DNA of 64,000 nt from a virus: the IMG/VR virus record IMGVR_UViG_3300022902_000004, positions 62,268-126,267 of that record; one strand, 5' to 3'. Each line of letters starts with the position of its first letter. Position 1 is the stretch's first letter. The notes beneath the pieces are model-generated. The model made no database searches. It was not told the origin of the DNA and saw only the letters and a program-made list of their open reading frames with translations. This document shows positions 33,024 to 33,671 of this stretch, piece after piece. The position numbers and the translations under genes are program-made.

Positions 33024-33671
33024 TCAGCTTTCATGTAAATTATCTTGATATAATTTCGCAAGGACCTTTTTGGCAAAAATATACAATTTTTCAATTTCAG
33101 ACGAAGACAAAGATCCAATGATTCTGTCTTCGTCAACCAGCGATGCTTCAACGATTTTGCGCAATGTCCGCGAGCCTATACCTGAGACCACACTCTGGTC
33201 CATCAATGCCTTACAGATTGTCCAGTTGGGTTTCGTATCCAGCCTCGCCGTGAACACTTCCAATGATGGTGGCTCAGTCAGCATATCCGGACCTAGAGAT
33301 TCCAGCTTCTTTAGGAACGCCGTACGCCCATAAATCACCTTCAGCGTCCCGAAACCTCGCGGGTCCATGAAGTAGACCGGGTTGCCTGTGTCAAAACTAA
33401 CACGAACCCGAGTATTCTTCGGTTGCTCGGAAGACCAGGCTCCCGACATCCCCAATGTGTTTAGCAGGAAGTGGTCGTTGTCGAATATCCAGAAGAGCAG
33501 TTTCCCCTTGACACCGACACCAACAACTTTTGCACCGAGAATATTCTCGACGCCATCGATTGGCTTTTTTATGTATCTTCCCGAGACGGGTTCAACCGAC
33601 GTGACACGTCGCAGGCCCACCATTTTTGCCAGAGATTCACCGATTAACTTATATTCTGCGCCTTCTGGCAT
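33024..33671 (-). CDS. Fpg/Nei-family DNA glycosylase/AP lyase (zinc-finger-less)
   Basis: The N-terminus MPEGAEYKLI (Pro2/Glu3 catalytic), H2TH motif LMDQSVVSGIGSRTLRKIVEA. There is no C-terminal CxxC finger; 215 aa. Confidence 0.7.
   Translation of the reverse strand: MPEGAEYKLIGESLAKMVGLRRVTSVEPVSGRYIKKPIDGVENILGAKVVGVGVKGKLLFWIFDNDHFLLNTLGMSGAWSSEQPKNTRVRVSFDTGNPVYFMDPRGFGTLKVIYGRTAFLKKLESLGPDMLTEPPSLEVFTARLDTKPNWTICKALMDQSVVSGIGSRTLRKIVEASLVDEDRIIGSLSSSEIEKLYIFAKKVLAKLYQDNLHES

What the first reader, a model, noticed from the sequence alone, without database searches (positions are those of the whole stretch)
33024..33671. Zinc-finger-less Fpg/Nei-family DNA glycosylase in a phage, adjacent to a GIY-YIG homing endonuclease
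The N-terminus MPEGAEY has the catalytic Pro2/Glu3. A clear H2TH motif follows (LMDQSVVSGIGSRTL). The protein stops at 215 aa without the usual C-terminal zinc finger.

Fpg/Nei enzymes are uncommon in phages. In a genome that may carry modified bases, such an enzyme could police unmodified or host DNA. It could take part in a base-exchange pathway. It could also process lesions created by homing-endonuclease-initiated repair.
Basis: partly seen in the sequence, partly recalled or inferred. Interest (0 to 1): 0.5.

Follow-up and report, generated by a model that had tools for sequence, protein, structure and literature searches.

The report
Homing-endonuclease-wrecked phage Nei glycosylase gene
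The 215-residue "zinc-finger-less" DNA glycosylase is the remnant of a normal phage Nei repair gene whose back half was overwritten by a selfish homing-endonuclease cassette, so it is most likely a dead relic, not a new minimal enzyme.

Summary
The ORF is real: 33024-33671, minus strand, 215 aa, starting MPEGAEY. It is an Fpg/Nei homologue (Pfam PF01149; mimivirus Nei1 E 1e-23; model TM 0.86).

It is not a natural finger-less enzyme.
- The 117 other listed homologues and the 79 viral-contig copies that could be read are nearly all about 250-305 aa. All 79 carry an invariant GNY H2TH motif and a C-terminal zincless finger.
- A syntenic relative without the endonuclease (L002) has a 260-aa gene that is 89% identical over residues 1-166.
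- Homology to it stops exactly after SG(I/V)G (window 33175). It resumes only in the last 5 codons of the GIY-YIG ORF.
- In between lies a 933-nt low-GC cassette. It holds a foreign, damaged H2TH remnant, a spacer and the endonuclease gene.
- The remnant is scrambled at 16 of 16 conserved positions (N167S), and its finger region is deleted.

The three closest endonuclease relatives (L013, L098, L099) sit in the same place in other nei genes. There the cassette supplies an intact replacement 3' half, and the displaced native 3' end survives downstream in two of them.

So this endonuclease lineage targets the most conserved stretch of nei and swaps the gene's C-terminus. This is known from fungal mitochondria. 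In this window the swap left a crippled gene. Interest is low to moderate.

The parts
33024..33671 (-). 215-aa ORF: chimeric, truncated nei (Fpg/Nei family) relic
   Evidence: It is the only copy of about 215 aa that is identical in more than ten assemblies.
33175..33671 (-). Native 5' part, codons 1-166. It holds the beta-sandwich domain with Pro2, Glu3, Lys57 and Arg105, and the first H2TH helix up to SGIG.
   Evidence: It is 84.5% nt and 89% aa identical to the endonuclease-free relative L002/P0004, the same level as the flanking genes. GC is 0.51.
33042..33174 (-). Foreign, cassette-borne H2TH remnant, codons 167 to about 210. Codons 167-182 are scrambled.
   Evidence: It has no nt homology to L002. 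Residues 167-182 match the family consensus at 0 of 16 positions, while 183-208 fit it. Best matches are P0017/P0022/P0032 at 45-50%, against 33% for P0004. GC is 0.37, like the endonuclease gene.
33004..33041 (-). Endonuclease 5' spacer. It is read through as the last 5 codons (NLHES) plus TGA of the relic ORF, followed by 20 nt to the endonuclease ATG.
   Evidence: Alignment A8. Window CAAGATAATTTACATGAAAGCTGAAG aligns with CAA..TAA|GTTACATGAAA..GAA of L099, L013 and L098, where TAA is the nei stop. The finger-coding region is therefore deleted. A promoter-like site lies at 33039-33011 (weak evidence).
32224..33003 (-). Free-standing GIY-YIG/NUMOD3 homing endonuclease gene (259 aa), apparently intact
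   Evidence: Pfam GIY-YIG scores 39.5 bits and NUMOD3 56.6 bits; PHROG 314 is a homing endonuclease family, E 1e-32. It is absent from the syntenic relatives L001/L002. It is full length relative to P0122.
32224..32241 (-). Last 5 codons plus stop of the native nei gene (IQNKV*), now used as the end of the endonuclease ORF
   Evidence: Homology to L002 resumes here: TTCAAAATAAAGTGTAA is identical. P0004 ends VQNKV*.
32242..33174 (-). The inserted cassette as a whole (933 nt). It replaces about 270 nt (codons 167 to about 255) of the ancestral gene.

Best explanation
The 215-aa ORF is the relic of a full-length phage Nei glycosylase of the mimivirus Nei1/NEIL1 zincless-finger type. It was overwritten from the H2TH 'GNY' motif onward by a mobile cassette made of a replacement nei 3' half plus a free-standing GIY-YIG homing endonuclease gene.

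Shown:
- Codons 1-166 are native.
- Codons 167 to about 210, the spacer and the endonuclease gene are foreign and low in GC.
- Only the last five native codons survive, behind the endonuclease gene.
- In the three closest endonuclease relatives the same kind of cassette begins at the same motif and supplies an intact 3' half. The displaced native 3' half is left downstream in two of them.

Inferred:
- The endonuclease cuts endonuclease-free nei alleles at or near the GNY-coding sequence, which is the most conserved nucleotide stretch of the gene.
- It then spreads by double-strand-break repair and carries its own cleavage-resistant gene end. This is 'C-terminal swapping', as with the mobile endonuclease ORFs of fungal mitochondria.
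- In this phage lineage the replacement end is damaged: 16 scrambled codons at the motif and a deletion of the roughly 50-65 codons encoding linker and finger.
- The product therefore lacks two of the three elements that clamp the DNA phosphates (the H2TH Asn and the finger Arg). It is most likely inactive as a glycosylase or lyase, a recently made pseudogene that still has an open frame.
For: (1) Length and architecture.
- Of the 120 listed homologues, only the three window-type sequences P0001-P0003 have this truncated architecture. Nearly all others are about 250-296 aa, and most of those carry PF21025 as well.
- All 79 IMG/VR copies that could be read are 257-305 aa, with G[VI]GNY and the ...DGRTTHW... 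hairpin.
- P0004 scores H2TH 53 bits and Fapy_DNA_glyco_C 36 bits. The window scores 26 bits and has no C domain.

(2) Breakpoints against the syntenic endonuclease-free relative lie at window 33175/33174 and at about 32241.

(3) Mosaic origin.
- The head is 89% identical to P0004.
- The tail is best at 45-50% to other clades and only 33% to P0004.
- GC is 0.51 in the head, 0.37 in the tail and 0.40 in the endonuclease gene.

(4) Independent loci with the nearest endonuclease relatives (44-53% identity).
- L099 has an intact nei, then the endonuclease gene, then a displaced nei 3' part that starts at the GNY motif. GC falls from about 0.6 to about 0.38 exactly at GVGNY and recovers at the remnant.
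- L098 has an intact nei end, the endonuclease gene and a remnant of about 17 codons.
- L013 has an intact nei and the endonuclease gene, with the same GC step.

(5) Spacer alignment shows that the window ORF runs past the position of the nei stop codon into the endonuclease leader.

(6) Codons 163-173 (SGVGNYVKAES) are the most conserved 30 nt in 65 distinct phage nei genes.

(7) Functional importance of what is missing.
- Window S167 corresponds to Fpg N168. The equivalent of R258 is missing.
- Mutants at these positions lose at least 10-fold in kcat (PMC4737139).
- The finger contributes an absolutely conserved Arg, and the active site is built from all three parts (PMC9266487).

(8) There is no finger-coding sequence in any frame of the locus or anywhere in the 64-kb window.
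Against: - The frame is still open for 215 codons. The catalytic Pro2, Glu3, Lys57 and Arg105 are intact.
- The N-terminal 166 residues show no excess of lineage-specific changes (4 against 6 in P0004).
- AlphaFold models the tail confidently as helices. That confidence is largely borrowed from the alignment.
- The arrangement is 100% identical in contigs from ten different metagenome samples over up to 9.9 kb. It is therefore not strongly deleterious, and there is no polymorphism with which to test for relaxed selection.
- Cleavage specificity of the endonuclease is inferred, not measured.
- Only 64 kb of a genome of at least 318 kb could be searched for a second nei or a separate finger ORF.
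Confidence: 0.85

Rival explanations
1. A genuine minimal, finger-less Fpg/Nei enzyme that is active on damaged or modified bases or on AP sites. This is the first reader's view, with roles such as policing unmodified DNA or base exchange.
For: - Pro2, Glu3, Lys57 and Arg105 are intact.
- The fold is predicted with high confidence.
- The ORF is intact and identical in many samples.
- It lies in a ligase/dUTPase-like/NT5C/ThyX nucleotide-metabolism neighbourhood.
Against: - No other family member has this architecture.
- The missing part was removed by an identifiable insertion and deletion.
- The H2TH Asn and five other nearly invariant residues are replaced, and the finger Arg is gone.
- Both are required for eversion and catalysis (PMC4737139, PMC9266487).
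Confidence: 0.07
2. A genes-in-pieces enzyme. The endonuclease split nei, and a separately encoded C-terminal fragment reassembles with the 215-aa part, as in phage Aeh1 NrdA split by mobE.
For: Phage precedents exist for functional genes split by homing endonucleases (PMC2988022). Only 64 kb of a genome of at least 318 kb could be searched (one search gives the longest contig).
Against: - Directly behind the endonuclease gene come only 5 native codons and then the next syntenic gene.
- tblastn with 12 finger domains and a family HMM over all frames found nothing.
- The GNY helix would still be defective.
Confidence: 0.04
3. The endonuclease gene lies in a self-splicing group I intron, or is part of an intein, so that a full-length Nei is restored after splicing.
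For: JGI's automatic name for the endonuclease is 'group I intron endonuclease'. Many GIY-YIG enzymes are intron-encoded.
Against: - No Rfam family, including group I introns, matches 31500-34200 at E up to 1.
- No downstream exon exists that could encode the finger.
- There are no intein domains in either ORF.
- The endonuclease ORF has its own start after a stop codon.
Confidence: 0.01
4. An assembly or sequencing artefact, such as a chimeric contig or frameshift, creates an apparent truncation.
For: One variant contig (L097, source of P0003) has an unrelated 5' end typical of a contig-end chimera.
Against: Ten independent contigs, from JGI, ENA and Logan assemblies of different samples, are 99.9-100% identical to the window across the whole locus.
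Confidence: 0.01

Closest known systems
Mimivirus Nei1 (MvNei1; PDB 3a42, 3a45, 3a46, 3vk7/8) and human NEIL1 or plant Fpg: zincless-finger members of the Fpg/Nei (H2TH) superfamily
   Same: - It is the best sequence and fold match: E 1e-23, TMq 0.86, about 31% identity.
- It has the same N-terminal Pro-Glu, beta-sandwich and H2TH topology.
- The intact relatives (P0004 and others) have a Cys-free beta-hairpin finger (PF21025) like these enzymes.
   Different: - The window copy covers only about 217 of 289 residues of MvNei1 (TMt 0.65).
- It has no finger at all.
- It carries S instead of the H2TH Asn.
- It is a derivative broken by insertion, not an alternative architecture.
Mobile endonuclease ORFs (mORFs) that insert a foreign C-terminus into fungal mitochondrial genes: Allomyces macrogynus atp6; Glomus sp. 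atp6, atp9 (GIY-YIG), cox2 and nad3 (PMC3630166)
   Same: - An endonuclease ORF is preceded by a foreign replacement 3' part of the host gene.
- The native 3' part is displaced downstream and decays.
- The foreign and native parts are strongly diverged.
- The endonuclease ORF can end in frame in native sequence.
All of this is seen in L099, L098, L013 and the window.
   Different: - The hosts here are phage or viral contigs, and the target is a DNA-repair glycosylase gene.
- In the window the replacement end is itself broken, so no intact hybrid gene results.
- Mobility and cleavage have not been shown.
Free-standing homing endonucleases of T4-like phages (Seg and Mob proteins): intronless homing, marker exclusion, and split genes such as Aeh1 nrdA/mobE, T4 gene 60/mobA and phage 25 gene 43 (PMC2988022). 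Also nuclease genes at recombination boundaries (PMC10448857).
   Same: - GIY-YIG plus NUMOD3 architecture.
- Presence or absence between close relatives.
- Insertion in a functionally critical, conserved region of a host gene.
- Mosaic sequence boundaries next to the endonuclease gene.
   Different: In the known split-gene cases both halves persist and the enzyme still works. Here the distal half is gone.

Membership tests
Fpg/Nei (H2TH) DNA glycosylase superfamily | N-terminal Pro (nucleophile) followed by catalytic Glu after Met removal | tested here: met
   The protein starts MPEG. P2 and E3 are invariant in alignments A3 and A4.
Fpg/Nei (H2TH) DNA glycosylase superfamily | N-terminal beta-sandwich domain (PF01149), with equivalents of Fpg Lys56 and Arg108 | tested here: met
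   PF01149 scores 61.2 bits against a cut-off of 25.5. K57 and R105 align with Fpg K56 and R108 (the Fpg sequence was recalled from memory and checked against four published residue numbers). Fold match is TMq 0.86.
Fpg/Nei (H2TH) DNA glycosylase superfamily | H2TH domain with the conserved G-N-[IY] Asn that contacts the lesion phosphates (Fpg N168) | tested here: not met
   PF06831 scores 26.4 bits, below its gathering score of 34.7. The changes N167S, Y168R, K170L, E172K, L174V and P181E fall at columns that are 96-100% conserved.
Fpg/Nei (H2TH) DNA glycosylase superfamily | C-terminal zinc or zincless beta-hairpin finger that supplies the invariant Arg (Fpg R258) | tested here: not met
   The ORF ends at residue 215 and has no PF21025 or PF06827 hit. 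The family Arg (R245 of P0004) has no counterpart. It is not encoded in other frames or elsewhere in the window.
Zincless-finger Nei clade of uncultivated phages (PHROG 21295; relatives P0004-P0120) | About 260-270 aa, with G[VI]GNY and the ..VYG.K.D..G..V..E.T.DGRTTHWVP..Q hairpin without a Cys4 site | tested here: not met
   All 79 readable IMG/VR copies meet it. The window copy shares only residues 1-166 by descent, at 89% identity to P0004.
Free-standing GIY-YIG homing endonuclease | GIY-YIG catalytic domain plus NUMOD3 and a C-terminal DNA-binding region, with its own start codon outside an intron | tested here: met
   GIY-YIG scores 39.5 bits (cut-off 22.6) and NUMOD3 56.6 bits; PHROG 314 E 1e-32. 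There is no group I intron.
Free-standing GIY-YIG homing endonuclease | Presence or absence polymorphism at one site between closely related genomes | tested here: met
   It is absent from the syntenic L001/L002, whose flanks are about 85% identical in nt.
Free-standing GIY-YIG homing endonuclease | Site-specific cleavage of the endonuclease-free allele, and resistance of the endonuclease-carrying allele | not testable with these tools
   This is inferred only from three observations: cassette boundaries coincide at the GNY-coding site in the window and L099, L013 shows a GC difference across the same motif, and that site is the most conserved 30 nt of the gene.
mORF-type 'foreign C-terminus' gene hybrid (as in fungal mitochondria) | A foreign replacement 3' part of the host gene lies directly upstream of the endonuclease ORF | tested here: met
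   The window tail has GC 0.37 against 0.51 in the head, and its best hits are in other clades. The same holds in L013, L098 and L099.
mORF-type 'foreign C-terminus' gene hybrid (as in fungal mitochondria) | The displaced native 3' part lies downstream of the endonuclease ORF | tested here: met
   The window keeps 5 codons, L098 about 17 codons and L099 about 98-112 codons.
mORF-type 'foreign C-terminus' gene hybrid (as in fungal mitochondria) | The resulting hybrid host gene is complete | tested here: not met
   It is complete in L013 and L099, and the readable 3' part in L098 is intact. In the window it is truncated and scrambled.
Group I intron or intein-embedded endonuclease | A ribozyme core or Hint domain, with flanking exons or exteins that restore the host gene | tested here: not met
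   No Rfam match at E up to 1. No Hint or intein Pfam hit. No distal coding part.

The most novel reading that the evidence does not exclude
This GIY-YIG lineage is a phage counterpart of the fungal mitochondrial 'C-terminal swapping' endonuclease elements. It would be a low-GC cassette (a replacement nei 3' half plus the endonuclease gene) that homes into the H2TH GNY-coding sequence of Nei glycosylase genes. It would move between unrelated viral genomes of 45-60% GC and between zinc-finger and zincless nei types. In most hosts it would keep the repair gene working, and it would kill it when the carried gene end decays, as in this window.
Probability: 0.55. Interest if true: 0.5.

Novelty: new member of a known kind. 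Interest (0 to 1): 0.33.

Why it matters
For the finding as stated, the result is a caution. An apparently 'minimal' enzyme in a phage can be the debris of a homing event, and automatic annotation already calls this ORF a formamidopyrimidine-DNA glycosylase.

Two by-products have some value.
- A large, uniform and uncharacterised clade of zincless-finger Nei genes exists in uncultivated, often large, viral genomes. There are at least 299 IMG/VR contigs, and PHROG 21295 is labelled 'unknown function'. In the three endonuclease-free loci with readable neighbours (L001/L002, L126, L128) the gene lies in a conserved ligase-nei-NT5C-ThyX neighbourhood. This suggests that these viruses carry their own short base-excision repair module, with MvNei1 as the structural model.
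- The locus family gives a clean natural series for a homing endonuclease that carries a spare gene end. The hybrid is intact in L099 and L013, the native remnant shrinks from about 112 to 17 to 5 to 0 codons, the endonuclease itself is truncated in L099, and the host gene is destroyed in the window. This arrangement is documented mainly in fungal mitochondria.

Tried and rejected
- Frameshift explanation for the scrambled codons 167-182. Translating the other frames and running a family HMM with all filters off over all three frames of 32200-33700 gave nothing outside residues 1-215. A weak resemblance in one frame (AKSL against AESL) is within chance.
- A finger domain elsewhere in the window. 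tblastn with 12 C-terminal domains found only noise.
- Group I intron. No Rfam hit.
- Testing for relaxed selection from population variation. The ten contigs examined are identical except for one endonuclease substitution, K194N, so there is no power.
- Relative-rate count on residues 1-166. There is no acceleration, 4 changes against 6. This is uninformative if the event is recent.
- P0003, which seemed to have lost the start codon. This proved to be a contig-end chimera.
- Finding the same phage or cassette in IMG/VR by an exact 32-mer from the tail. No match.
- megablast of the locus against deposited phages. No match.
- Endonuclease relatives next to nei in the 80 IMG/VR loci. None is convincing; there are only three weak upstream hits in L031, L090 and L092, which were not followed up.
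- The best protein matches to the foreign tail (P0017, P0022). These are endonuclease-free loci, so the actual donor was not found.

Full report
**1. The observation**

An ORF lies at exactly 33024-33671, on the minus strand. It is 215 aa, starts MPEGAEYKLIGE and contains LMDQSVVSGIGSRTL.
- Pfam assigns the N-terminal Fpg/Nei domain with confidence: PF01149, 61.2 bits against a cut-off of 25.5.
- The H2TH domain scores only 26.4 bits, below its gathering score of 34.7. No C-terminal domain is found.
- The best solved relatives are the mimivirus Nei1 structures (3a45, 3a42, 3vk7; E about 1e-23). They align over query 1-212 and chain 1-217 of 289-295 residues.
- An AlphaFold model built on 37 family sequences has pLDDT 95.3. 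Foldseek puts MvNei1 first, with TMq 0.86 but TMt only 0.65. The fold is right, and a third of the target is unmatched.
- Twenty nucleotides downstream starts a 259-aa GIY-YIG/NUMOD3 homing endonuclease gene, from ATG 33003 to the stop at 32224.

**2. The family is not finger-less**

A search of 5.8 billion proteins returned 293 relatives.
- Of the 120 listed, the window sequence and two near-identical variants (P0001-P0003) are 215-220 aa.
- Nearly all of the other 117 are about 250-296 aa. Most of those carry PF01149, PF06831 and PF21025 (Fapy_DNA_glyco_C).
- A few shorter entries with reduced query coverage look like fragments; this was not checked.

A scan of IMG/VR found 299 viral contigs encoding relatives, many of 100-290 kb.
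- In the 79 whose gene could be read, the protein is 257-305 aa.
- Every one has G[VI]GNY and the Cys-free hairpin ..VYG.K.D..G..V..E.T.DGRTTHWVP..Q.
- The model of the closest full-length relative, P0004, has the extra beta-hairpin at residues 237-249.

The clade is thus of the MvNei1/NEIL1 'zincless finger' type. The window copy is the exception in lacking the domain altogether.

**3. What happened to the gene**

P0004 is 260 aa and lies in contigs L001/L002. These are syntenic with the window (ligase ... nei, a 194-aa gene, a 75-aa gene, a dUTPase_2-like gene, NT5C, ThyX) and have no endonuclease gene.
- blastn and pairwise alignments show about 85% nt identity from upstream of the start codon to window 33175. 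That is the Gly of S-G-(I/V)-G, codon 166.
- There is then no similarity until about 32241. From there the last five codons and stop of the endonuclease ORF (IQNKV*) equal the last five codons of P0004 (VQNKV*), and synteny continues.
- So 933 nt (32242-33174) replace about 270 nt (codons 167 to about 255) of the ancestral gene.

The replaced stretch begins with 49 codons that still read as part of the ORF.
- Residues 183-208 fit the family consensus (R183, G186, S187, L188, S189, E192, L196, V203, L204, Y208).
- Residues 167-182 match it at 0 of 16 positions. Six of these columns are 96-100% conserved: N167S, Y168R, K170L, E172K, L174V, P181E.

The head and the tail have different origins.
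- The head is 89% identical to P0004, and the next best relative is at 66%.
- The tail is closest to other clades (P0017, P0022, P0032 at 45-50%) and only 33% identical to P0004.
- GC is 0.51 in the head, 0.37 in the tail and 0.40 in the endonuclease gene.

The end of the ORF is not a gene end.
- Window ...CAAGATAATTTACATGAAAGCTGAAG... aligns with the nei stop codon plus endonuclease leader of related loci (CAA..TAA|GTTACATGAAA..GAA).
- The last five codons (NLHES*) are therefore read from the endonuclease's 5' spacer, and the linker and finger region has been deleted.
- A family HMM with all filters off sees nothing in the other frames of 32200-33700.
- tblastn with twelve finger domains finds nothing in the 64-kb window.
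- No Rfam family, including group I introns, matches the locus.

**4. The endonuclease lineage lives in nei genes**

The closest endonuclease relatives were found by a protein search and a metagenome scan. All lie immediately 3' of a nei gene.
- L013 (52% identity) has an intact 284-aa Fpg/Nei with a true Cys4 finger, followed by the endonuclease gene.
- L098 has the intact nei 3' part, a complete endonuclease gene, and then a remnant of the last 17 or so nei codons (...DGNGRMVHWCERCQT*).
- L099 has an intact 276-aa nei, an endonuclease gene truncated to 206 aa, and then a second, displaced nei 3' part of 98 codons. That part begins NMLK--ALHRAGVSPWR, which is at the GNY motif.

Composition marks the cassette.
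- In L099 the GC content is about 0.6 in the host genes and in the nei 5' part.
- It falls to about 0.38 exactly at GVGNY (nt 2159) and stays low through the nei 3' half and the endonuclease gene.
- It returns to about 0.55-0.61 where the displaced remnant begins.
- L013 shows the same pattern (0.527 / 0.422 / 0.370 / 0.53). L098 shows it where readable (0.425 / 0.38 / 0.58).

The mobile unit is therefore [replacement nei 3' half + spacer + endonuclease gene], inserted at the GNY-coding site.
- The native 3' half is displaced and decays, in the series of about 112, 17, 5 (window) and 0 codons.
- Codons 163-173 (SGVGNYVKAES) are the most conserved 30-nt stretch in 65 distinct phage nei genes. 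A homing endonuclease would be expected to target such a stretch. This is an inference; no cleavage data exist.

**5. Mechanism and function**

Shown: the chimeric structure, the foreign origin of the tail, the deletion of the finger, and the recurrence of the cassette at the same motif in independent genomes.

Inferred: the endonuclease cuts endonuclease-free alleles near the GNY-coding sequence and is copied in by double-strand-break repair together with its own gene end.

In three other genomes the host gene stays complete. In this one it does not.
- By alignment, the family's N167 and R245 correspond to E. coli Fpg N168 and R258. The Fpg sequence was recalled from memory and validated by four residue numbers.
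- Mutants at both positions lose at least 10-fold in kcat, and N168D is the most damaging (PMC4737139).
- The finger contributes the one absolutely conserved Arg that pinches the phosphates flanking the lesion. The active site is built from the beta-sandwich, the H2TH and the finger together (PMC9266487).
- With Ser at 167, the rest of the helix rewritten and no finger, the product most likely neither everts a base nor binds DNA productively.

I rate it a recently formed pseudogene-like relic (0.85 for the structural history, about 0.8 for loss of activity).

Points against:
- The frame is open and Pro2, Glu3, Lys57 and Arg105 are intact.
- The head shows no accelerated change (4 against 6 lineage-specific substitutions).
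- The arrangement is 99.9-100% identical in ten contigs from different samples. It is therefore tolerated, and it offers no polymorphism for a selection test.

**6. Comparison with what is known**

The protein is a homologue of MvNei1/NEIL1-type enzymes. It fails two defining features of the superfamily, the H2TH Asn and the finger Arg.

The locus architecture matches the 'mobile ORF plus foreign C-terminus' hybrids of fungal mitochondrial genes: Allomyces atp6, and Glomus atp6, atp9, cox2 and nad3 (PMC3630166). It also relates to free-standing phage homing endonucleases that insert into critical regions of host genes or mark recombination boundaries (PMC2988022, PMC10448857).

I found no paper that links Fpg/Nei with large phages. 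No phage case of C-terminal swapping turned up in the library searched. That is absence of evidence in a limited library, not proof of novelty.

**7. Verdict**

The interpretation as a novel finger-less enzyme with a role in modified-base biology is not supported.

The thing itself is a new member of known kinds: a gene disrupted by a homing endonuclease, and a C-terminus-swapping endonuclease cassette.

Interest is 0.33. It is low for the glycosylase and somewhat higher for two by-products: the nei-specific cassette series, and the large uncharacterised phage Nei clade next to a DNA ligase gene.

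Noticed in passing
window 26916-27773 (-): This is a second endonuclease-like gene, with TnsA-like N-terminal endonuclease, NUMOD3 and Phage_endo_I hits. It lies directly after the ThyX-like gene. In the relative L001/L002 that position holds a methyltransferase-like gene, and a similar NUMOD3/endo I gene lies elsewhere. It is probably another mobile nuclease insertion.
   Followed up: partly
window 29876-30769 (+): This is a 290-297-aa ORF on the opposite strand, between the 75-aa gene and the NT5C-like gene. It has no Pfam hit. 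It is absent from the syntenic relatives L001/L002, where the two neighbours abut. It is an indel of unknown nature.
   Followed up: no
window 34236-35305 (-): Three tandem paralogous small ORFs (108, 130 and 116 aa) all begin MK(I/V)T(K/P)NQLRRLIRE. Judged by ORF count and size alone, the relative L001 has one ORF of this size (112 aa) before nei. Function is unknown.
   Followed up: no
L001/L002, L126, L128 and window 27848-38669: In the three endonuclease-free loci with readable neighbours (L001/L002, L126, L128), the zincless nei gene keeps a conserved neighbourhood: ATP-dependent DNA ligase, nei, small ORFs, a dUTPase_2/MazG-like gene, NT5C-like nucleotidase and a ThyX-like gene. This suggests a virus-encoded base-excision repair and nucleotide-metabolism module.
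   Followed up: partly
L099 2501-3121: The endonuclease in this locus is truncated to 206 aa and lacks the C-terminal helix-turn-helix region. Meanwhile the hybrid nei upstream is intact and the displaced native 3' half is still 98 codons long. This is the opposite decay state to the window.
   Followed up: yes
protein P0005 (248 aa; contig of 3.6 kb): This is another family member with an aberrant C-terminus. It reads ...NPKLDPFAGRIVTSSANASKVILNTSARLIEL in place of ..GKK.DP.GN.V...DGRTTHW... It looks like a frameshifted finger, so occasional decay of nei is not unique to the window.
   Followed up: no
window 33011-33039 (-): A sigma-70-like promoter match (TTTACA, 17 nt spacer, TATACT; 10 of 12) overlaps the last codons of the relic ORF, just upstream of the endonuclease start. 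The count of such sites in the region is not above the shuffled expectation, so this is only a hint of separate endonuclease transcription.
   Followed up: no
L014 3438-5768: The third-closest endonuclease relative (P0123, 41% identity) is not next to nei. Its locus holds another GIY-YIG gene, an HhH-GPD glycosylase fragment (140 aa) and a NUDIX gene. It is possibly another repair-gene-associated endonuclease site.
   Followed up: no
L031, L090 and L092, about 2300-3000 (+): In these three IMG/VR loci, ORFs immediately upstream of nei give weak matches to the window endonuclease (E about 1e-6). They may be NUMOD3-type nucleases on the other side of nei.
   Followed up: no
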